Positions 9,301-52,400 of a DNA stretch of 64,000 nt are shown here, one piece after another. Source of the DNA: Saccostrea cucullata (taxonomy: Eukaryota); the NCBI RefSeq assembly GCF_032062105.1, contig NW_026926516.1, forward strand, positions 186,001-250,000. Reading direction: 5' to 3'. The translations under genes and the position numbers were made by a program. Under the pieces are notes generated by a model. That model worked only from the letters and a program-made list of their open reading frames with translations, was not told the origin of the DNA and ran no database searches. Positions within the stretch are counted from its first letter, which is position 1; each line of letters begins with the position of its first letter.

Positions 9301-12300
9301 GCTTCTTGCAGTGTTTCATCACTCCCCCCCCCAACACCACTTTCCAAGACCTCTGACAATCAGGAAATGGAATCAACAGAATCTCTAACTACTTCTTGCA
9401 CTACTGGAAATTTAATTAAAAAACAATGTTCTTAGTACAAGTGTTATCTCAAAATTTGTGCTTGTACATGTCAATTGAATAGAGTCGATCATGCTGAAAA
9501 TGCATTTATTTCCATTAAAAGTGTTGATAAAATTAGTATCCTCCCACACAGTGCAACAGCATGCATAAACTCTATACGTCAATAATAAGGCCTAGACCAG
9601 TATCATTAAGACTATAAATGGAGGGACCATTGCTGCACAATTAACCTCTAGGTTTCTGACCCCTGTCATTTTCCCAGGATTCTATCGAGACAACAAATGT
9701 AAACATAGAAGCCTGCACGTTATTGAGTGAGCTAATGTGAATTTTCCCTTGCAGTATCTGCAAGAATCTCATTCCCATCTTCCTTTGGTGAGCACTATTA
9801 AATTACAGATTTTGGTCTGATCACTGAAGTAATGAGCACAGATTTTAAACTTGATCAATTATAGATGACAGTTTCTCTCTGTTGACATTGCAGTCCCCAA
9901 GAATCAATAGTCCATAATGAGTTTCTCCTTAAAAGGATGGTGCTTAAAAGCTATGACTTTGATTTAAAGCATGTTCACCAAAACATAAATGCAAATTTAA
10001 ATTAAAGAAAAAAATTACTTTTTATAGATTTCCAAAGAAAATTTTCTTAACAAGTAACAAAAACAAAATTTTGCCATGCATGCTGACTTCAGTATTACTG
10101 TACAGTAGAACTTGGATGTCTCAAACACTGATTTATCTGAAATACCCTGTATCTGTTGAATTCATTCAAAAGCTTTCTTTACCTTTTTGTTAATTAACTC
10201 CAACTTCTCAAATCCTTGAATATTATCTTCAAGTCTTTTCATGGTTCCATCAAGTTCAAGATATTAAAGTTTGACTGTATATTAATTATATTTGAACCAT
10301 TAATTATCGAAACAATGATACTTCAGCTGCTTTTAAGTGGAATATTGTTATATTACATTCTCTTCTCTTCATCAAAATGTTGATAACTCATGGACAAAAT
10401 ATAAATATCGAAAAATCAATTACCTGCATTTAGGTGTTGTTGCTTTATTAACTGAAGGCATGTCCCAGAGAAGCAATTCCTTATCACTGTCTTATTATTA
10501 AGTCTCTTTTAATTAAGAATCACTATAAAGCTTATAAAAAAGGCAATAATTGCTTTGATGCTTTGTCAAGCAGTAAATACAGATCTTTATCAATTTTCAA
10601 ATTGATTTTTTCTTCTGGTTGCAATTCAGCTCCAGAGAGAAATTCTTCTCCAGAGTCAGTTAATAAAAGGTGATGACCATTATAATTACAGAATCCGAAC
10701 AGCTAAAAACAATGTTTTGCAGGGTCTAAGACTGAACTCAATTAATGACAGAAGATTGAACATGATATCATCTTCATGAAGTCCAACATCAAAGTCTATC
10801 ACTTTCCAATAAGGAAAAAAAATTCACAGAGAGAAGTCTTGGAACAGATCTGGTTTGTGATTTCACTAAGGAAGACCTTTTGATGACAAAAAGTTTATCT
10901 GTCTTTGCCGCTCTGAAGCCTGATCAAGATGCTGAAACAAAGTGTCTGGTCACAAGATATAACCGTCAGGGTTTCACACCTCAAAGTGACCAAACATCGG
11001 TCCATCTGGCCAATGAGACCGCTGGCTTGGTGTTAAATTCTTATGAGATGGCTTTCTTCGATTTCCATGGTGATGAAAATTAATTAAGCAGGATACGTTG
11101 TCATGTAATGGATGGCAAAGTTAATAAGCAGCTGATCCGATTGACGTATTATATACCTGCCAATCTTACCTGCTTGTCAACAGCAACTATTTTTAGACTC
11201 CCAAATCACCCCTGACCTTGTAAAATATCCTATTTAATGTTACATGAATCCCTAAGGATTGTTTATAGAGTGAGGGGCGGGGATTTTACATTTTATTGAT
11301 ATCAGTTCAATTTGTATTGTTCAGATCATGTTGGTTCCCTAAAAACCTTATCAATCACTTTCATGTTCTCTACAACTTTGAATCTCTACAATTCTTAAAA
11401 GATAATTTTGGTTCTCTGAAAATCTTTTAAAGCACTAACTGGTTCTCTACAACACTTATAAATCACTTTAGTGCTTCTCTACAACACTTATAAATCACTT
11501 AGGTTCTCTACAACACTTATAAATCACTTAAGTTCTCTAACTCTTATAAATCACTTTAGTGCTTTGATCTCTACAACACTTATAAATCACTTCAGTGCTT
11601 CTCTACAACACCTATAATTCACTCAGGTTCTCTACAACACTTATAAATCACTTAAGTTCTCTAACTCTTATAAATCACTTTAGTGCTTTGATCTCTACAA
11701 CATTTATAAATCACTTTAGTGCTTCTCTACAACACCTATAATTCACTTAGGTTCTCTACAACACTTATAAATCACTTAAGTTCTCTACAATCACTTTAGT
11801 GCTTCTCTACAACACTTATAAATCACTTAAGTTCTCTACAATCACTTTAGTGCTTCTCTACAACACTTATAAATCACTTAAGTTCTCTACAATCACTTTA
11901 GTGCTTCTCTACAACACTTATAGATCACTTAGCTTCTCTACAACACTTATAAATCACTTAGATTCTCTTCAACACTTATAAATCACTTTAGTGCTTCTCT
12001 ACAACTGTCTTATAAATCACTTTGCTTCTCTGCAACACTTATAACTCACTTTGCTTCTCTACAACACTTATGAATCACTTTGCTTTTCTACAACACTTAT
12101 AAATGAATCACTTTGCATTTCTACAACTCTTAATATAGAGCACTTTGCTTCTCTTACAACTCATACAGATTACTCTAGTTTCTTGTTCTCAGATAAAAAA
12201 TAATGTTATTAAGCAGACATGCATTATAACCTATCAGATTAAATCTATTAAGAGGCCGACTGCAGGTCTGGATCCATGCCTGATAATAATGCATCCCCTG

Positions 12301-27566: not shown

Positions 27567-28494
27567 TATGGAAGGGAATTACCGCCAAAAGTCTATGTAT
27601 CTTGCTTTTATTTTTATTCTGCCTACTTCTTTATGCTTTGTTATTATTGTAATTATATGTCACTTTATTGTTTTCATATTCGTCTTTATTACATTTCACT
27701 TTGACTTTTATCCTTCTTCATTTTGACCTTACTTCTATGTTGCTTTATTCTTCTAAATTCATTTTACTTTCTTTTAAATTGATACAGTTTCTTAAATGAT
27801 TATAACTATTACGAACGTTAACTCAATCACGCAAACAATGTAGCATATTCAATGAAGACGAATACAAGTTGTCCGAATTTAGTGCCGCATTATAACGCTA
27901 GATGGCAGGGATGTTCGCTAAGAGTGTTGGTAAAATTAGGTAAGCATACCCGGGCCGGGTTATTCGAGTTTTTTTTCAATTTTCTCAAACTTAAATTTTT
28001 AAAAGAATGATGTTTGTTATAAGTCCAGGTATGTACTCGATACATGCCATTCCCTCGGGTCTCGCTAGATGGTAAGCCCCCCGGAAGACTGACTACATAG
28101 TGATGCTTCCTTCTGAAGACTATACAGTGGGACTCCTCCCCCTCCCCGGGGAAGTTTCAATATATAGCTAGTCTTCCGTGGGAAATCTCGCTATACATAG
28201 CAATTCGCCCCATTCCTAGCAACCCCTACCCCGAATAGTTTTTTTTTTGAATCGTAAAACAATGTTTATATATACTAACGTTTTCAATTTTTGAAGAAAA
28301 GTTATCCGTTCAAACAGGGACCTACCGGGTATATACTAGTATATAGGTCCCTGGTTATATATGAATAAATATTTAAATAATATCATTTTAATGGTGTTTT
28401 ATAATTAAATCATTTTAACCATTTAGTTAAACATAGATAATCTTCACGAGTAAATATGGATATGACTCTTTCTCCCCCCCCCCCTTTGGATGCA

Positions 28495-28820: not shown

Positions 28821-30809
28821 AGTCTCAATATATATACTGACTTCCGGGTGGACAACCTCCTATGGGGTAAGTTTCATCGGTAGAGGGGAGGGTGGCCACG
28901 AAACATTTACCTATAGCTAAACGTAAGTTTTTACCACTGGAAAGGTTCAGCGAAAGGCTTGTTGCCCCCATCCCTTACACTTTTTGTTGCAGTACTAATA
29001 GTCAATTTATATATTAAAAGTCATGTACTTAGTGGCATATGAGTAAAATTTATTACTGAAAAAAGTTGACGACCCCCCCCCCCCCTTCACTACCACCCAA
29101 TAGAATTTTCGAGCTTTAAGATTTTTTTAGCTCTCCAGGTTGATGACAAACACGGTGCGTACTAAAGATATTTCTTTCTTTGTTGAAAAGTGCTATTTTA
29201 ATATAAAATATTTACGCAGAAAAAAAGACCGGGGTGTTTCTAGTATGCATGAGTGCATGTATTCTGGTTCCAACTTCGACTTCCTTGCGCGGATCTAGAG
29301 GGGGGTAGGACCCCTTGGAATTAACAAGGTTACTAAAACAAGGAAAAAAAGTTAACCCCCCCCCCCCCCAATGAAATAGAATTTTGACGTTTGAGCAAGT
29401 TTAGGTTTTTTTCTTCTCTTTATGCTTGTCACCTGAGATTGGATTTTTTTTTTGACTGAGTTGCCCCCCCCCCCGACCCCACTGGAAAAAAAATTCTGGA
29501 TCCGCGCCTGCCTACCCATAACGCTCCTCACTCATTTGCAAAGCCCTGTCCCTAGAATCACGCGCATAAGCAGTGACTATCTGTCGTGAAATAAAGTTCA
29601 CTTCATTGGAAGGTTCTGAAAAACAACCCAATTTATAAGGGTTAACTAGTTTCAAAATCTTTAACATTTTTATAACAATTAAACTTAATTCAAATATCCA
29701 ACAAATAACTTGAGTAGAACTATATTTTTCAGGCGAGAGAACAGTGACGTAGCATCGTTTTTGAAAGAGGGGAGGGGGGCAACAAGAGAATAAATATTCA
29801 AGCTACCCGACTGAAAACAACTTGACAAGCAAAAAATAACCCCCAGGAAATTGTCCAAACTTGAAAATACACCTATAGGCGTCGGTACCGGGGAGGGGGG
29901 GGGGGCTTAGCCCCCACTTCTTTCCAAAGATAGACTTAGTATAGACATTGAACATTCCTGCGTAGCTTTAGCCCCCCCCCCCCCCCCCACTTTCCATAGA
30001 CACGATGCAGTAAAGGTATAAAATAGGGAAACTGGTGGTATTTGGGAAAAAAAAACTTTGGCACTGGAGTTCAAACCTTCAACCCACCCCCACCCCACCC
30101 TCCTCACGAAATAGAATTTTTGTGTTTGGAAAATGGACATTGCTTGTCGTTTTTTTTTTTGGAAGGTCTAAAAAAAATTCGTATACTTACCCCCCCCCCC
30201 CCCCCATTTCAATTAGCTTACGACGCCAATGAAATCGTATTTCGGGGGCGTGGTGGGTTTTGAGTTAGATTCAACTTCTTCTATAGAATCAAATTTAAAT
30301 TTTCTTCCTACTATTCGTACTACATTTACTTATTTGACCCTTAGTCTTACAAAAAGTGGGTCGGCCTCTTAAATGAACATATAGTATAGTATAAAGTTAT
30401 GTCTGAAAAAAGAAGCCGCTATTCCTGTGTGCCCAGAGAAAATAAATATGGAGTTTCCATCATTGGATCGGGAGATCGGATCCGGCCTTCAGAAGTTCGA
30501 TTGATAAAGTATTAAGGCGTATAAGAATCTCAAATAACCCGACCCGGGTTTTCTTAAACCTAGTTTTACCAACACTCGTAGCGAACACCACACCACCTAG
30601 CGTTATAATGCCGCACTAAATTTTGACGGTTTGACAACTTCCATTCGTCTTCATTAAATATGCTTCATTGTAAGCGTGATTGAATTAATATTCGTAGTAG
30701 AGATAATGCTAATAATTTATTAAAGAAACTGTTTAAGTTTAAAAGAAAGTAGAATGAATTTACTAGAATAAAGCAACATTGAAGTAAAGACAAAATGAAG
30801 AATGATAAA

Positions 30810-34270: not shown

Positions 34271-37200
34271 TTAAGATATCCTTGTTGGGAAGATAGGTAG
34301 TCCTCTGACATATTCATCCAGTTTGTTTTGAAACAATTCACTTGTGATGGGTTGTCCTAATTCACATTGTGGATTCCGAATCACATATTCCACATATATC
34401 TGGAATTTAAAACAAATGAAATAGGTGAAGATAACGAAAAATGGCCAATTTAAAAAATATATACATATATTGAGAATATAAATCTGTGAAGTGAACTAAA
34501 ACAAATACCCCTGGAAATCATAGAGGTGGGATCAGGTGCCTGGGAAGATTAAACATCCCTTGTTGACCTGTAGGGCTGGGAATGTATATCGAAATATCGA
34601 TAGGATGATACACATATCGATACACTTGAAAAAATATCGAATTATTGCCCCAAAAATTTGACTTCTGTTTACTTTGTGTATTAACATTTGGGTTTAATAT
34701 AAAAAATAAATATTAAGTTAAATATAAATATAGATATGAAATAAATAATAAATTTCACCACTTGAGTAAAATGTTTTTGTTTTACAACATATAAACAACT
34801 ATTTTGAATAAATTATTCTCATTTGCAAAGAAATAATTTGTTTATTTCAATGTAAAAAAAGGTTTCATAAGCTATTAAACATCTTGTGATACATATCGTA
34901 TCGTGGCTCAAATATTGTGATACAAATCGATATAGAAAAAGTTGTATCGTCCCAGCCCTATTGACCTGTCACAAATGTTTGACATACCCTTTAATAAAGC
35001 CCTTTAACTTATTTTAAAACAATTCTATTTGATAGTAATAATATATGTCTCACATAAAAGAAGCAAATAAAATATAGTAAACAACTCACAGTGCTGTAGA
35101 TTTGATGTAAAACATCTTTGATGTTCCCCACTGATAAATCAGTTGTCATGATAAACTTCATACCACTAGGTGTCTCATAGAAATTCAGTTTGTATCTGCT
35201 AGTTCTAAAGCTTGAAAATCCTTCTTTTCTGTTAAAAAGTTAAGGTAAATCAAGCAATTTAAAATACCTGGTATTTGAATGAGAAAAGCCTTACAAATAA
35301 AGTCACGCCTGCTAATCGATCACTTGCACAACCAGCAGTTGTGTATAACAATCAAAAGAGATCGATTTCCGGTTGTGCACAGGTTGTAAATGGACTCGAT
35401 TCAGGCAATAATTTATATTTTTATTAAAATATAAGAATGTGATTCCATGAGCAATTTATTTTTCTTTAATTTTACACTCTCATAAAATGCAGTGATTGTC
35501 GATTAGCGACTATATTTGTTTTGAAGCAAGGACTGGTAGAGCGAAAACGCTGATTGAAATCAGTATTCGCCGACTAAAATTCATTTTAATCTCAACTAAC
35601 CTTGAATATTCAATGTCCACCATGAGTATGCTACAAGTGCATCCTATCCACCAAAATTGGGACTTCGATTTGTGTATAATTTGACAAATATTAGAAGAAA
35701 ATAACATTGCTTGTGCATGCGATCATTCAGTTGTGAAAGAGATCTCGGGTTGTGCATGAGATGAAGGACAAAAAGTTTCAAACTTTACGAATAAAATTAA
35801 ACATTATATAATTATAAGGTAGTCTTGCAAAATTTAAAACATAAAGCTATAGAATTTTCTTGCAAATAAGTTGAATTTGTGAGAAAAAAAGATATATAAG
35901 TAAACTGTTGAAGTATATCTGTTAGGGGAGGGGGTTAAAGTTTCAGTTACAATCAATATAATTACAGTAAAAAATTATGTGTGTATTATTTAAATCACAA
36001 ATCTTATGTGAATTATCCAATGCATCTTTAATATGATTATTCCGTATGCAAAAAAAAAAATAAATAATAAAAAAGAGAGATAAAATAAAATTAAAAAAAC
36101 AGCATATACTGGGCAGTATATCATTTTCTTTCAGTATGAAATTGTTTAACTCAAACATATCTTACCTTTATTTGGCGGTACTTCAACAAAAGTGGAGGGA
36201 AAGACCGAATTTTTCATGCTTTCATTTCATATATACATGTATTTTATAGTAAAAGTGCTGTCTGTGAAAAAAATAAGAGACAGGCTCTCGATGATATGTG
36301 TTTGCCAAGGGGTAAATATTTCCTGGTGTTTTGAAGCTAGGTATCCTGAATTTCGTTATCGACATGGAAAGGATCAAGATGACAACACCACATTACAGGT
36401 GCTTCTGGACAGGACACCCCCCGGACTTGTTGGGCACTTTTTTTCTCACAAATTATATTCATTACATTTATTCATCATGTGTACCATAGGGGAAAATCGT
36501 CAAAAATCCAAAATAATCGTTCAATAAAACATATCCCTATTAAACATTCCAAATAAAATTCATGTAAAGCACCAAATCAGCCGCAAAATTAATAATTTCA
36601 AAAATTACTAGTACTTTTTTTATTTCAAAAGCATCAATGCATGGGAAGCACAAAATATTCAAAGCTGAAATAGATCAATTTCATTTCAGACTGTCTTCAA
36701 AGCAAAAATAAATAAAATGTTTTTTTTAATTAAATAGAAAATTTTAGTGAATTTGTTCATCAAATGGAGTCATCAATGAATCAATAAAAAAGTCAATGAT
36801 GAATTATAAGAATGTATGAATGAAGATGTAGGTCTCTCAAGATGAACCACATGCCGAAACCCTGGATCTTTATCACGTGATAATACCCATGGTTTCTGCA
36901 GTGGGCTAATCAAGGCGCGTAGTTTGATGGAAAATGTAAGAAAAATATTTGTTGTCACATCTGTAGCACATTTAGCTGCAGATCTGTAGCGTTATGGTTT
37001 TATATATTTGTCTTTGAGCCAATATATATATTTTATCCACCTTTCAACCATATATAGTTGTCTCTACAGGCAATAAAATCTCTAGAAGTTAATTTTCAGC
37101 AATATAAAAAATAATTTTAATCAAGCGAGTTTATCACTTGTAGAGACGAGTATAAAGAGTTGGGAGGTGTATAAAATATACATATTGGCTACAGAATGTG

Positions 37201-40200
37201 TGTAGAACTAGGGAGTGAAAGGTAGTTGATTGACCAATGCTTGAAAGTAGAGGAATTCTCCCCCAAAACGCGCAAAAAATATTGCGCCGTAAATTGCCCT
37301 TTTTTGCATTACAGGCTCTGTAGCGTTATGGTCAAAGACAAATACATGTATATAAAACTATAACGCTACAGATCTGCAGCTATAGCACATTCAAAACAAT
37401 TTTTACAACAGTGTTGTTGAAAAACTTTTCAATCTTTATTCACCTTGCAACTTTAACCACTTCATTATTATCTGGAAAATCATGGCAATTTCCTTTCATA
37501 TCTTGATTACTCCCTGGTTAGGGAGTACCTATTGTAAACTCTTTCTATATAACCATATATTATTAATTACTCAGTAAGAAATGACAATGAAATTGTAACA
37601 ACAACAATAAATGCTCAGTTTAAATAAAGTTTTTAAAATTAAGACTGATTAGTTTACAGAACTTATGAAAAATAACGCCTCATTTCCCGATATAAGAGAT
37701 CGGCCGCTGCTGCTGAAAAAGTCAAAATGTGCTTGCAAATATGAATGTACATCATTGGCGGATCTAGAAGATGGTTCCTGGGGTTGGACCCCCCCCCTCC
37801 CCCCTCTATTTGATTGGAGAGAGTTATGTAAAACAAAACAGAATAAAATAAATACTTTGAATAAAAAAAAATTCGAATAAAATAAATACACTGTACATGT
37901 CGTTCAATCTCTGTCCTTTCTGGTCGCTATAAATAAAGTTCCCTCGTTTAATATGCTTTCCTCCGAGCCCTACTTGCTTGTTTGTGTTTTTGTTTTGTTT
38001 GTTTGTTATTGGATTGTCAAAGTCCCCCATAGAACTGTTGAAAATTCAGTGTTGCCATGTTTGAAGTGCCTATTTGCATGAGTGTTGGACACCTGGACAC
38101 CCTCCCCCTTTTTTTCAAAAAGTGCTGGATCTGCCCCTGCGATGTCTTCATACTGTAAATCACTTTTTATTCGCGAGAACTTTATTTTCGCGTAATTACG
38201 CGAGACAGTGTACTCGCGAAAATTAAATTCTCGCGTATTATAGTATTCCTTAAGAACATATAGAGCGATGACCACAGTTCGCGAAAATTTTGTCTCGCTA
38301 ATCAAGAGTCAATGACTATCTCGCGAAAATAAGGTGTCGCGAAAATTTTGTGATCTACAGTATTATAGACAATATTTAACGCTTTATAATTACGAAAAAT
38401 AAAATATAAGAGGTGAATTATAGATATTGTATAATACTTGCGTAACTTTTTATCCTTTATCTCATGCATAACCCGAGATCTCTTTCACAACTGAATGATC
38501 GCATGCACAAGCAATGTTTTTTTCTTCGAATATTTGTCAAATTAAACACATATTGAAGTCCCAGTTTTGGTGGATAGGATGCACTTGTAGCATACTCATG
38601 GTGGACACTGAATTTTCAAGGTTGGTTGAGATTAAAACGAACTTTAGTCGGCGAATACTGTTTTCAATCAGCGTTTTCGCTCTACCAGTCCTTGCTTCAA
38701 AACAAATACAGTCGCTAATCGACAATCACTGCATTTTATGAGAGTGTAAAATTAAAGAAAAATAAATTGCTCATGGAATCACATTCTTATATTTTAATAA
38801 AAATATAAATTATTGACTGAATCGAGTCCATTTACTACCTGTGCACTGGAATTATTCGCATCAACTGCACAACCGGAAATCGATCTCTTTTGATTGTTAT
38901 ACACAACTGCTGGTTGTGCAAGTGATCGATTAGCAGGCGTGAAAGTGCTAGACTACTTAAAAGGTGATAAATGTTGAATGGCACAGGCACTTGATGGTAC
39001 ATTTTTATTTCTTATCAATAAAAAGAATTTGAATCCCATACCTCATTATAATTATTAGGCATTGGACATTTTTTCCATAAGAAAAATGAGTAAGAGTCTG
39101 CAAAATTGAAGTTGGACAATTTCCTTATAATGTAAAACTTGAAATTCTTTCAGTTTTTAAATGTGCTCTTTAAAAAAGGAAACAAAAAGTTGAAACTTTA
39201 ATAGATGATTACTTGTATTTTTGTCAATTTTAATTATAACCTAGCAAATTTTTCCACATTTGTATCATATCATGACTTCCAATGTTATGTGGTTACAGTA
39301 CATATGTTATACACAATTTTTTTTCTGATTTATTAGAGGAATTGTTCTAATTAAGGATACAAATCCGTAGGTGAAATCCTCTGTACAAAAGACTTTATGG
39401 AATGTATCATGCCATACATCAACTTGAACTCCTGCAAAATAATAAAAATATGCAAGTGTAGACATGGTAGAATAATTTGAAATACTTTTGTCTATGATAC
39501 TGTATACAATGTACAAGGAAATCTTAATTTGGCCCTGCCTAATTTTCACTCCTTTCTGCTTATTAATGTGGGCGAATTTGAAACAGGCGTCCTGGCGATT
39601 TATAAGAACACAATATGATTTCTTAAACAAAACTGTGATTGGTTGAATTTAAAGTGGGGCATTAAAATTCTTTGCAAGTGTTAAAGGCTGAAAATAACAA
39701 GGGGCAAAAAATAACCCTGTATGCAGTACTGAAGTTCAACTGTATTTGCGTTAATCTAAATTTCCAAACTGTTGCATTTTAGTACTATGGTTCATTTCTA
39801 TAGGAATTAAAAGGAGAACAATTAATTAAAGTATTAATTTGAAGCAGACTATTGCTGAAACTGTGCAGTATCAGAGTTTTAAATGAATAGCATATTGCCA
39901 AGAAAAGTCAATAACTTGATATTTTATTGGATTTCAACCTTTCAGAGGTAAGAAATGAAAGTTTTATGGTGATAGGGAATTAAACGGACATCCAGAGCAA
40001 AAAGTTGAGGTGGATCGACAGCTAATTTATTTCAGCCTGTATTGATGGAAACAAGCAATCGAAGTCTGTGCACAAAACCCCAGATGAGATTATGTGACAC
40101 TGGTCTGAGATCGGTTGAGACACCTGGCCAGATCAAAATTTTTTATTCAGATCTCGCTGAGATTGCCCCTTTTTTTGTCTTCAAAATCATTTCAGAGAGG

Positions 40201-40513
40201 ATCCGCTCTGATTTGCTACATTGCAAGTATGTGGAACGTATTCTAACTGTGATGAGGGCTTGTACCTATACACAGTTAGATTACTCTAACCAACATAGAC
40301 CTATTTATTTAAAGCTACAGTACAAAATGCAATTTGCAATGAACATTCAGTCTGTCTTTTTCACAAGGCAAATTAAATGTCTTCAACTTGAAAGGGATTT
40401 CGGTATACATGTACCTCATCTTTGCTCATGCCCGACTGCTTTTTCCTATTCCACTCAGTGTAGTACAAACACGTTCCATTTCTGTCAAATATGTATAGGG
40501 TGTACACTGTCAT
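34271..40513 (-). CDS. TRAPPC1: Trafficking protein particle complex subunit 1 (BET5), 145 aa, 4 exons
   Basis: Exons 40513-40415 ([33 protein letters not shown]), 39431-39361 ([23 protein letters not shown]+TT), 35228-35090 ([46 protein letters not shown]), 34399-34271 ([42 protein letters not shown]). Phases join cleanly. Sequence and length match TRAPPC1/BET5 as recalled. Absent from the ORF track because the exons are short. Confidence 0.96.
34571..34960. mobile_element. hAT-type MITE in TRAPPC1 intron 3
   Basis: TIR TAGGGCTGGGA...TCCCAGCCCTA. 8-bp TSD TTGACCTG at 34563-34570 and 34961-34968. Confidence 0.9.
36973..37382. mobile_element. MITE with 9-bp TSD (Mutator-like length), nested in the 35304-38941 element
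   Basis: TIR TAGCTGCAGATCTGTAGCGTTAT. TSD TAGCACATT at 36964-36972 and 37383-37391. Confidence 0.88.
37753..38139. mobile_element. G/C-tract MITE (GGCGGATC...GATCCGCC type), nested
   Basis: CATTGGCGGATCTAG...CTGGATCTGCCCCTG imperfect TIRs. Related ends at 13042-13190 and 29286-29510. No TSD resolved. Confidence 0.55.
38153..38360. mobile_element. TA-targeting MITE (CTGTA...TACAG), nested
   Basis: TA|CTGTAAATCAC...GTGATCTACAG|TA with internal TCGCGA repeats. Confidence 0.8.
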
Positions 40514-49400: not shown

Positions 49401-52400
49401 GATAAAATTGTCAAACAACTGTTTGAATTTTTTTTATGTACAATTCATAAGTTTAAAATATAAATTGCAATTATTTAAAATTTGACTGAGGATGGGTTTT
49501 ACATGAATACACATAAAAATACATGATTCACGACAAAAAATGTTCACAAGCAAGATAAAGTAAAGAAACAGATATTTCATAAACACAAATAAAATGTGTT
49601 TACAGTATTTTATGCATATGTTCTGTATTTATTTAATGGCATACAATGTACTAGAAAGATATACTAATCTGTGACGCACTATACGTAAATACACTTGGGA
49701 CAAAAAAAACATGCATGCACATATGTCTTTGTTCATAAACATGATTTATTTTATATTTTGTAGCTGTATTTATGTCCTGTCTAAGATTTCTTACTTTTCT
49801 TTAAGATTGCGGATCAGATAGCAGAGATTCACAGGAAGACAGAGGAATCAGAGACAGAACTACGGCAGAATCACAGACAGCAGATAAAGGAACTGAATCA
49901 GAGGTACACCAAAGACATGGAGCGAAACCTGGCCAAGTTCCACAGCGACCAGAAGAACAGGGAAGAGGAGTTCCGAAAGCTTACACTGGAATACGAGGAA
50001 AAGTAAGAGATGCTTAAAAAATCAGAAATAAGTTTAGTTTTTTGCTGTGCTGAAATTGATCATGCATGTAAGTCTGTTCGAAGACAGGCGAGCTGATACA
50101 TGTATATTTAGATAACCAGGCCAACATTCATGGTCCAAATAATCATACTGGTATCTTATGAATCTTTAATTTTAGATTGCAAGAGCAGAGGAATGAAATA
50201 ACATCTCTTCATACAGTTAAACAGAAACTAGAGTCTCAAAGGTAAGGTATTGAAAATGTTATAACTAGTGTATTCAATTTAAAAGTCTTTGTATCCACTT
50301 TGCCCATTGGTTTAAAAGTGAAAATGATGTATATGATCTCTATGGTAGGTCAGAGATTCTAATGAAACTCCAGTACATGATGCAGTCTCAGTGGAATGAA
50401 GCCGTACAGATGTTGGCCACTACTCCTCAGAGAAAGGTCAGAATTTGGAGTTTAGTGATAATGTACAAAATATATATTACTTCAAGTCAAGTTTTCATTT
50501 TTGTGGTTTGACTGTACCAATTAAAAGGAAATTGACTTGAAATCTATTTTCTCAAATTAAAACTATCAATTGTACTCTGAAGAGCTTTTTATGCGCCCGG
50601 ATCGATAGATCCAGGGCGTATATTGTTTTTGTCCTGTCTGTTTGTCTGTTTATCTGTTTGTCTGTTTATCTGTTTATCTGTTTGTCTGTTTGTCTTTCTG
50701 TCTGTTGTCAACTTTAACCTTCGCCATAACTTTTGAACCATAAGAGATAAAGACTTCATATTTGGTATGCATACTCCACTAATAAAGTCCTTTCAAATGA
50801 CATCAAGGTCAATGACCTTGTGACCTTGACTGTGACCTTTATGTTAAAAATAGCTTTTTCCACTGTTTGTCATAACTTTTGAACCATAGGAGATAGGGAC
50901 TTCATATTTTGTATACATACTCTACTAATAAAGTCCTTTCAAATGTCGTCAAGGTCAATGATCTTGTGACCTTGACTGTGACCTATATGCTAGAAATAGC
51001 TTTTTCCACTTTTTGTCATAACTTTTGAACCATAGGAGATATTTGGTATGCATACGCCACCAATTAAGTTATTTCAAACGACACCAAGGTCAATGACCTT
51101 GTGACCTTGACTGTGACCATTATGCTAAAAATAGATTTTTCGAACTTTGTTGCTGCCGGGCGCATAGTGTTTCACAAACACATCTTGTCTTGAAAATACT
51201 TTTTATGACTTCTGAAATCTTGATAAAGCAAATTCCTTTGAAAGGGAAAAAAAATAAGCATTTATGCTTTAACAATTTCTTGTAGACATACGCTAGTACA
51301 TCCTTTAGTTCCCAGACTAACACCACTACGAGTGCAGCCCTGAACACCAGTATTCCTAGTCAGGGGGCGTTCCCCATCACCAGCAGTCCGGGAAGGGACA
51401 GTCACACTGCCCCGCCCCTAGAGCCCAATATCAGTGACCTGACCACCTCCCTCCACATGCAGCAGTTCTTCCAAAGGTAGACATATTTTAAAAGTGTGTG
51501 GATAGATTAGAAAATTTTCATTTAATTACTAAAAACAGGTTATTGATCCAGAAAATGGATCTATGCTAAATAAATCAACAATATACTGTAAACCAACTTT
51601 TATTCGCGACGCCTTTATTTCGCGATTTACCAGGGGTAAACTAGTTAGAGACGACTAATTTTCGCGATAAAGCCTTTTTTGATCTGTTTCAAATAGACAG
51701 AGAGACTTTAAGTACTGGTTCGCGGCGAGAAATATTCGCGATAACAAGGCTGTCGCGAACTTTGCGATAATTTCTCGCACGCGAATAAAAGTTGGTTTAC
51801 AGTACTGTAAACGAATTGCATTTGGCTGTGTATTCTCTTTAGCGGCTTTGGCAGAACACAGCAACTGCTAAATCAAGTACAACGCTAAATGTCTTGCACA
51901 TATACACATAAATAAGAAAATGAAGAAATGCACTAAATCAAATCTACGCTAACTTAATATTCAAAAGTCAATTACCGCCAAATATTGTACATGCTAAATA
52001 TAATACATTATACAGTATTTACTTTGATTAAAATCAGTGTTTTCATTGATTGCCATTGAATTTTCTTTCTGCATTAATATAAATTGCTTTTGGACTATTT
52101 AACAATCACCTAATGACACCTGAGTTGAAGAATTATGATAACAATCTTTATAAAATGCTTTGTAGTCTTTCACAACCTCTGGTTTTTCCACATACATCCA
52201 TGCAAGCAGAAACCAGCACAAGCTCTAGGAATCCACCAGCCATCAGCGAGAGGAGGGTAGGCGAAACTTCTCAAGTTACAGAATCGCTGTTCAATGGAGT
52301 GAAAAACTCTTCTGAAGTATTCCATCGGAGGGAACAAGAAGACAGAGCATTACATAATGGCCTACAGGAAGACAGGGTACAGTCCAATACTCAGGAGGAA

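What the first reader, a model, noticed from the sequence alone, without database searches (positions are those of the whole stretch)
35229..39360. U12 minor intron inflated about 8-fold by a self-folding, nested transposon
Seen: a textbook U12 donor (GTATCCTT) and branch (CCTTAAC). 3638 of the 4132 nt belong to one element whose ~480-bp arms are inverted, and it ends about 59 nt from the branch sequence. Removing it and one TSD leaves a 489-nt intron. Inference: in the pre-mRNA the arms could pair and loop out ~2.7 kb, restoring roughly the original donor-to-branch distance and making the insertion tolerable. The same duplex would be an ADAR or Dicer substrate in a housekeeping gene whose minor intron may be rate-limiting.
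Basis: partly seen in the sequence, partly recalled or inferred. Interest (0 to 1): 0.7.

Follow-up and report, generated by a model that had tools for sequence, protein, structure and literature searches.

The report
P-like transposon inside a minor intron
A rare minor-class intron of a housekeeping gene holds one copy of a common jumping element whose long mirror-image ends are standard for its family and likely not needed for splicing; the more unusual part is that its intact relatives encode a predicted P-element-like enzyme with a built-in DNA-chewing domain.

Summary
A 4132-nt U12 intron of TRAPPC1 contains a 3638-nt element with 496/472-nt inverted arms and a 5-bp target duplication. 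RNA-type contigs join the exons exactly, and DNA of another animal shows the empty site. The splicing-rescue idea is poorly supported. All complete family copies have such arms (137 exact ends in the assembly). These arms are decaying (18 mismatches, 24-nt deletion). 39 of 188 human minor introns read are longer, and short, not long, minor introns are retained more. Against this: eight other U12 introns here are 163-1804 nt, two derived changes occur in both arms, and splicing of the inserted allele was not seen. The ends lead to intact 6.5-8.5-kb relatives. They encode a ~1400-aa transposase that folds like the P-element enzyme (Z 26.6) with a lambda-exonuclease domain inside, plus a convergent C2H2 zinc-finger gene. 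They have CAC ends and 5-bp duplications, unlike P (8 bp). The scan noted this protein design earlier in another genome (dead copy). Ends, duplication length, second gene and the non-coding family are added here. Not found in print; Repbase could not be checked.

The parts
40415..40513 (-). TRAPPC1 (Sybindin family) coding exon 1
39361..39431 (-). TRAPPC1 exon 2 (71 nt), upstream of the U12 intron
   Evidence: joint
35229..39360 (-). GT-AG U12-type intron, phase 2, 4132 nt (489 nt without the element)
39353..39360 (-). U12 5' splice site GTATCCTT
38942..38946 (-). 5-bp target site duplication, upstream copy
   Evidence: single copy at the empty site
35304..38941 (-). Non-coding DNA transposon, 3638 nt, one copy of a family that is typically ~3.1 kb
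   Evidence: no tblastn hit of the relatives' proteins
38446..38941 (-). 5' terminal inverted arm, 496 nt, begins CAC
38153..38360 (.). Nested 208-bp miniature element with TA duplication (Tc1/mariner-type by recalled rule), absent from the 18 other complete copies compared
   Evidence: many copies in runs
37755..38139 (.). Older miniature-element remnant with short inverted ends, shared by the family (limits approximate; Harbinger-like label recalled)
36973..37382 (.). Nested 410-bp element with TAG..CTA ends and 9-bp duplication (Academ-like label recalled); also present in copy L041, so inherited from the donor lineage
35304..35775 (-). 3' terminal inverted arm, 472 nt, with a 24-nt deletion not seen in 18 other copies
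35299..35303 (-). 5-bp target site duplication, downstream copy
35239..35245 (-). U12 branch sequence CCTTAAC, 10 nt before the intron end
35090..35228 (-). TRAPPC1 exon 3 (139 nt)
34271..34399 (-). TRAPPC1 coding exon 4 with stop codon

Best explanation
A 3.6-kb non-coding DNA transposon sits inside a U12-type intron of TRAPPC1; its long inverted arms are the family's standard ends, likely moved by a predicted P-element-like transposase of coding relatives, and the intron is likely spliced whether or not the arms pair. Shown: splice signals are intact and lie 419 and 59 nt outside the element; the empty site exists; coding relatives share the first 20 bases exactly and 76-82% of the arms. Inferred for the element: the DDE core (D109, D641, E1144 with D973-x-x-H976 in the modelled fragment) cuts at the CAC ends and inserts with a 5-base stagger. 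The inner lambda-exonuclease domain (D396, E410, K412 kept) would chew back 5' strands at the donor break and favour repair by copying, which would explain unrelated interiors and arm-to-arm copying. The convergent zinc-finger protein would supply the end binding that THAP supplies in P. Inferred for the RNA: the arms would form a ~470-bp duplex as a by-product, possibly edited, with little effect on splicing.
For: Family: 194 first-look candidates for a 152-nt arm piece; 137 exact 16-nt ends; 22 of 24 loci examined held complete copies, 19 distinct sites, with exact 5-bp duplication at 15, 6 bp at 2, one mismatch at 2. Decay: 18 mismatches, G-U 5, A-C 5, other 8, plus a 24-nt deletion; 9 of the 18 are shared with copy L041 and so inherited. 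Length: minor-intron length follows genome size (PMC7367187) and major-intron length, with a 4019-nt median in one fly (PMC10639083); shorter minor introns are retained more (PMC6717393); 39 of 188 human rows exceed 4132 nt; an 1804-nt repeat-filled U12 intron here has only a 31-nt inverted pair. Relatives: L078, L110, L111; model pLDDT 72.6; P transposase 6p5a Z 26.6, rmsd 4.7, 364 aligned over residues 1-1182; lambda exonuclease Z 15.2, rmsd 3.1, 182 aligned over 288-486; Transib Z 11.8; RAG1 Z 10.8; Pfam YqaJ in 9 of 15 frames; C2H2 fingers in 5 of 5 convergent frames tested.
Against: Eight other U12 introns measured in this assembly are 163-1804 nt, median 360, so 4132 nt is an outlier locally. 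Both arms share two derived changes, one found nowhere else in the assembly; independent mutation would give two with p of about 0.0005-0.003. Longer minor introns are more often alternatively spliced. The RNA-type runs share exon variants with the empty-site contig, so they probably come from animals without the insertion. The coding relatives are only 76-82% like the arms, so the exact mobilising family may be missing. No activity of any protein was tested.
Confidence: 0.75

Rival explanations
1. Loop-out rescue: the arms pair in the pre-mRNA, bring donor and branch to about 494 nt of effective distance, and this is what lets the insertion persist.
For: Geometry and a predicted -779 kcal/mol duplex; U12 introns here are mostly short; two derived changes stand in both arms and keep pairing; the U11/U12 particle bridges the intron (PMC3584512).
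Against: The arms are family-standard; 9 new mismatches and a 24-nt deletion were tolerated; no G-U excess. The two shared changes lie in one 154-nt stretch that holds a single mismatch, as one copying event between arms would give; conversion among long ends is proposed for Galileo (PMC3573991). Long minor introns splice well.
Confidence: 0.12
2. The duplex is a mild burden or regulator: it is edited or diced, or slows the minor spliceosome, so the inserted allele makes less TRAPPC1 mRNA.
For: A ~470-bp near-perfect duplex ending 59 nt from the branch sequence is predicted; U12 removal is slow and proposed to be rate-limiting; long minor introns show more cryptic splicing.
Against: The copy differs by 3.2-4.9% from its relatives and gained a private nested element, so it has persisted. 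No strong U2 donor and no second U12 donor lies in the element by simple patterns. Any transcribed family copy would form the same duplex.
Confidence: 0.1
3. The element is a Transib or RAG-like non-autonomous transposon, as CAC ends and 5-bp duplications suggest.
For: CAC ends and 5-bp duplications define protostome RAG-like elements (PMC7204232); a RAG1L-RAG2L pair is in this assembly.
Against: The ends differ from the RAGL consensus after CAC; no match of the element or its ends in six stretches around three RAG1-like loci; the relatives that share the arms encode a protein with no profile likeness to the local RAG1L and a much better fold match to P.
Confidence: 0.03

Closest known systems
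U12-type (minor) GT-AG introns carrying transposon insertions (PMC7367187, PMC10639083, PMC6717393; passages and one supplement part read)
   Same: Donor GTATCCTT, branch CCTTAAC close to the acceptor, phase 2, length of several kb within the published range.
   Different: 88% of the intron is one element with long inverted arms; TRAPPC1 is not in the mouse/human minor-intron tables searched, while TRAPPC2, 2L, 8 and 10 are.
P-element superfamily: Drosophila P transposase (PDB 6p5a), Anopheles P and P-MITEs (PMC1562414, passages), Galileo (PMC3573991, passages)
   Same: Best fold match over the whole core, DDE with DxxH, non-autonomous copies with shared ends and an unrelated interior, long arms as in Galileo.
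   Different: 5-bp instead of 8-bp duplication; no THAP found in six N-terminal stretches; lambda-exonuclease domain between the first and second catalytic D; convergent C2H2 zinc-finger gene.
KolobokE (PMC9587614, passages)
   Same: DxxH-type DDE transposase joined to a PD-(D/E)xK lambda-exonuclease-like domain.
   Different: There the nuclease lies downstream of the transposase domain, duplications are TTAA and ends are RR..YY; here it is inside, with CAC ends and 5-bp duplications of varied sequence.
Transib and RAG-like transposons (PMC7204232, passages)
   Same: CAC ends, 5-bp duplications, two convergent genes.
   Different: Enzyme is P-like, not RAG1-like; partner is a zinc-finger protein, not RAG2-like; no AAA at positions 8-10.

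Membership tests
U12-type intron | 5' splice site RTATCCTT | tested here: met
   GTATCCTT at 39360
U12-type intron | Branch sequence CCTTAAC shortly before the 3' end, no long pyrimidine tract | tested here: met
   CCTTAAC 10 nt before the end
U12-type intron | Junction used in RNA | tested here: met
   joint in X3, X8, X10 and X4; allele state of those animals unknown, likely empty
U12-type intron | Dependence on U11/U12 snRNPs; intronIC score | not testable with these tools
   no knock-down data or scoring program available
P-element superfamily | P-type transposase fold | tested here: met
   6p5a Z 26.6, rmsd 4.7, 364 aligned; next transposase Z 11.8; Foldseek E 3.7e-4
P-element superfamily | DDE triad with C/DxxH motif | tested here: met
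   D 7 of 7 rows with letters, D 13 of 13, D and H 13 of 13, E 11 of 12; roles assigned by motif and secondary structure, not by 3D superposition
P-element superfamily | 8-bp target duplication | tested here: not met
   5 bp at 15 of 19 non-coding sites and 9 of 11 coding elements; 8 bp for P in PMC1562414
P-element superfamily | N-terminal THAP domain | tested here: inconclusive
   no THAP hit in 6 of 6 N-terminal 300-aa stretches; upstream exons not excluded
Transib / RAG-like | CAC ends and 5-bp duplication | tested here: met
Transib / RAG-like | RAG1/Transib-type transposase and RAG2-like partner; end consensus CACTWMCAAA | tested here: not met
   no profile match to local RAG1L; Z 11.8 and 10.8 against 26.6 for P; partner is C2H2; end differs after CAC
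KolobokE | Lambda-exonuclease-like domain in the transposase protein | tested here: met
   Pfam YqaJ in 9 of 15 frames; profile hit to lambda exonuclease E 0.009; Z 15-16
KolobokE | Nuclease downstream of the DDE domain; TTAA duplication; RR..YY ends | tested here: not met
   nuclease at residues 288-487, between D109 and D641; CAC ends, 5-bp duplications; definition
Academ-type miniature element (410-bp insert) | TAG ends, 9-bp duplication, link to an Academ transposase | not tested
   ends and duplication seen; the family label is recalled, and the paper sought was not held

The most novel reading that the evidence does not exclude
The element marks an unnamed lineage of cut-and-paste transposons, diverse and intact in bivalves, that joins a P-element-like transposase with a built-in lambda exonuclease to RAG/Transib-like end chemistry (CAC ends, 5-bp duplication) and hands end recognition to a separate zinc-finger protein. 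The exonuclease would let the element steer repair of its own donor break.
Probability: 0.45. Interest if true: 0.65.

Novelty: new variant of a known kind. Interest (0 to 1): 0.45.

Why it matters
The intron itself is an ordinary tolerated insertion, though the filled and empty alleles make a clean natural pair for asking whether a long RNA duplex changes minor-intron splicing. The element lineage matters more. Superfamilies are sorted by enzyme, ends and duplication length, and this group pairs a P-like enzyme with Transib/RAG-like ends. Several copies have long open frames and near-perfect arms, so the role of a transposon-borne exonuclease can be tested directly by mutating one motif.

Tried and rejected
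Run search with 38950-39800 listed 17 runs, none on record as RNA and all with small word shares: no evidence on expression. Editing: kinds of change in RNA-type contigs were symmetric and like the DNA run (A>G 17-21, G>A 16-21), but these are contigs mostly from other copies, so this tests nothing. A second TRAPPC1 haplotype was not found in the assembly. The 14.4-kb copy on C18775 is not the coding partner: its extra 11.3 kb is a TTAA-flanked insert. RAG1-like loci share nothing with the element. Single-sequence Pfam and PDB searches of L078/L110 found nothing; profile comparison with a local P-like frame matched only 23 columns around DxxH, probability 0.8. Local folding of the intron's 3' end puts the branch region in a stem with exon 3, independent of the element; not pursued. 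Of 22 coding loci scanned 11 were left out of the end table: one end only or no inverted pair (L086, L110, L112, L113, L117, L122, L123, L124) or ends unresolved or at the locus edge (L127, L128, L129). Paper searches found no paper with TRAPPC1 and minor intron, none with 5-bp TSD, DNA transposon and oyster, and none whose listing describes this lineage (listings only). Repbase and most subscription papers were not searchable, and supplements of the transposon papers were not read.
Full report
Observation. The minus-strand interval 39360..35229 is 4132 nt, begins GTATCCTT and ends with CCTTAAC followed by 10 nt ending in AG. The joint between 35228 and 39361 stands in contigs of X3, X8 and X10, three studies, and not in DNA-type run X1; X4 shows it too. 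The element runs 38941..35304, 3638 nt, with the same five bases on both sides; the empty intron is 489 nt. DNA-type runs X2 and X13, one sample, hold the empty site. That sample may be another individual or a close relative species. Only one TRAPPC1 locus was found in the assembly. Earlier scan notes call this genome an oyster; homologues of the element's protein are named from a clam and a mussel.

The element is one copy of a common family. A 152-nt arm piece gave 194 first-look candidates, 40 scored, 97-100% identical; the first 16 bases occur 137 times exactly. Of 24 loci examined, 22 held complete copies, at 19 distinct sites: exact 5-bp duplication at 15, 6 bp at 2, five bases with one mismatch at 2. 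Most copies are 3.0-3.2 kb and all have ~500-bp arms. These copies were picked as the best matches to this arm, so they lean young. The window copy adds two inserts: a 208-bp TA-flanked element that the other 18 complete copies compared there lack, and a 410-bp element with a 9-bp duplication that L041 shares. The family labels for these inserts are recalled.

Do the arms serve splicing? They are predicted to pair at -779 kcal/mol and would leave 419 nt after the donor and 59 nt before the branch sequence unpaired, so the geometry is as described. The arms show decay: 454 pairs, 18 mismatches and a 24-nt deletion absent from 18 other copies; G-U and A-C mismatches are 5 and 5; nine mismatches are shared with L041. 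Over the first 480 nt this copy's arms are 440 of 456 identical, near the low end of the 22 copies. Two derived changes stand in both arms. One is found nowhere else in the assembly, the other in two more single arms. Chance is unlikely (p about 0.0005-0.003, rough). One copying event between the arms explains this more simply than selection, since larger defects were tolerated; conversion among long ends is proposed for Galileo (PMC3573991, passages).

Is the length a problem? Minor-intron length follows genome size and is not thought to be capped by intron definition (PMC7367187, passages). It follows major-intron length, and one fly has a median of 4019 nt (PMC10639083, passages). In mouse tissues shorter minor introns are retained more, while longer ones are more often alternatively spliced (PMC6717393, passages). 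In part 7 of 9 of that paper's supplementary file 8, 39 of 188 human rows exceed 4132 nt. The local control goes the other way. Eight U12 introns in Derlin, cullin and VPS35 genes of this assembly (families chosen from recall; introns accepted by motif and in-frame exons) are 163, 171, 279, 341, 379, 403, 1078 and 1804 nt, so this intron is 2.3 times the longest. The 1804-nt one is filled with repeats and has only a 31-nt inverted pair. The RNA-type runs X3, X8 and X10 share two exon variants, and X4 one, with the empty-site contig, so splicing of the filled allele is not shown. U12 removal is slow and proposed to limit expression (PMC3584512, passages), but nothing here tests that for this gene. 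Long-range intron structures are known to affect exon inclusion (PMC10691357, passages), so an effect is possible in principle.

What moves the element. Among 20 stretches taken at long or unpaired ends, L078 is an 8476-bp element with the same first 20 bases, arms 76-82% like the window's, a 1314-aa frame and a convergent zinc-finger frame. Its C-terminal 250 aa has 71 matches among 84 candidates in the assembly. Of 22 such loci, 11 gave both ends. All 11 begin with CAC; in two I trimmed the aligned repeat by 4-5 bases to reach it. Nine have an exact 5-bp duplication, one 4 bp, one none; lengths are 6.5-8.5 kb and arms 45-520 bp. Pfam YqaJ is found in 9 of 15 frames scanned, and weak TNP-like RNase H hits below cut-off in five. 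C2H2 fingers are found in 5 of 5 convergent frames tested and no THAP in 6 of 6 N-terminal stretches. A model of 1195 residues of L110 from 13 sequences has mean pLDDT 72.6. Its best matches are the Drosophila P transposase (Z 26.6, rmsd 4.7, 364 aligned, residues 1-1182) and lambda-type exonucleases (Z 14-16, residues 287-487), ahead of Transib (11.8) and RAG1 (10.8). D109, D641, D973, H976, E1144 and the nuclease D396, E410, K412 are conserved in nearly all rows that cover them. Neither protein has a tblastn hit in the short copies. Nineteen homologues were found, most unnamed, and one unnamed Atlas cluster of 58 members.

Mechanism. Shown: shared ends, 5-bp duplications, empty site, fold and conserved residues. 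Inferred: the P-like core cuts and pastes the element; the inner exonuclease resects the donor break and favours repair by copying, which fits unrelated interiors (as in P-MITEs, PMC1562414, passages) and arm-to-arm copying; the zinc-finger protein binds the arms in place of THAP. In the pre-mRNA the duplex is a by-product that leaves both U12 signals free, and the intron is most likely spliced as other multi-kilobase minor introns are.

Comparison. It works like a P element but fails the 8-bp duplication test, so I do not file it as P. It shares CAC ends and 5-bp duplications with Transib and RAG-like elements (PMC7204232, passages; PMC12730594, passages) but not their enzyme. KolobokE has a lambda-like nuclease downstream of the core, TTAA duplications and RR..YY ends (PMC9587614, passages). 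A bivalve survey lists its curated superfamilies without such a group in the passages read (PMC10294476). Searches listed no description, but I saw listings only, and Repbase was out of reach. The scan noted the same protein design in a dead copy from another genome (e1-7142953); that note is unchecked and is no independent proof. PMC7507305 was seen only as supplement hits.

Verdict. Observation confirmed; loop-out rescue unlikely (about 0.12) but untested; the intron is ordinary. The element belongs to what appears to be an unnamed P-like lineage with an inner exonuclease, CAC ends, 5-bp duplications and a zinc-finger partner. Interest 0.45.

Noticed in passing
L062:3787-8572 (G000 C20275): RAG1-like frame of 885 aa with a convergent 289-aa Kelch/RAG2-like frame: a RAG-like transposon gene pair of the kind reported in oysters. 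Ends not sought.
   Followed up: partly
L046:3019 to L047:5991 (G000 C18775): 11.3-kb TTAA-flanked insert with CCCTTTGTGTG ends inside a family copy; carries a 686-aa TNP-like transposase frame and a convergent 906-aa PIF1 helicase with a PHD finger.
   Followed up: partly
window 35229-39360: TRAPPC1 has a U12 intron here but is absent from the mouse/human minor-intron supplements searched; a class switch or loss in mammals is possible, not checked.
   Followed up: partly
window 35414/38807 and 35532/38689 (approximate): Two derived changes in both arms; the first is private to this copy in the assembly. Likely arm-to-arm copying.
   Followed up: yes
L115:1148-8445: One coding relative begins with CACAGTG, the RAG signal heptamer (recalled), with an exact 5-bp duplication.
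   Followed up: no
L142/L143 and L144/L145 (G000 C22155, C8576): Two VPS35 copies whose U12 introns (1078 and 1804 nt) have a degenerate branch sequence and largely different repeat content.
   Followed up: partly
L141 (G000 C12510:413766-416626): Another family copy lies about 7 kb after CUL1-like exons and may be inside that gene.
   Followed up: no
L035/L036, L043/L068, L044/L050: Three insertion sites occur on two contigs each, so the assembly holds some loci twice and copy counts are inflated.
   Followed up: yes
window 11441-12104, 50725-51141, 56287-57140, 61162-62233, 63104-63670: Tandem arrays, several with 146-166-bp units.
   Followed up: no
window 27707-27974 and 30523-30809: A second, older inverted pair (80% over 288 columns).
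   Followed up: no
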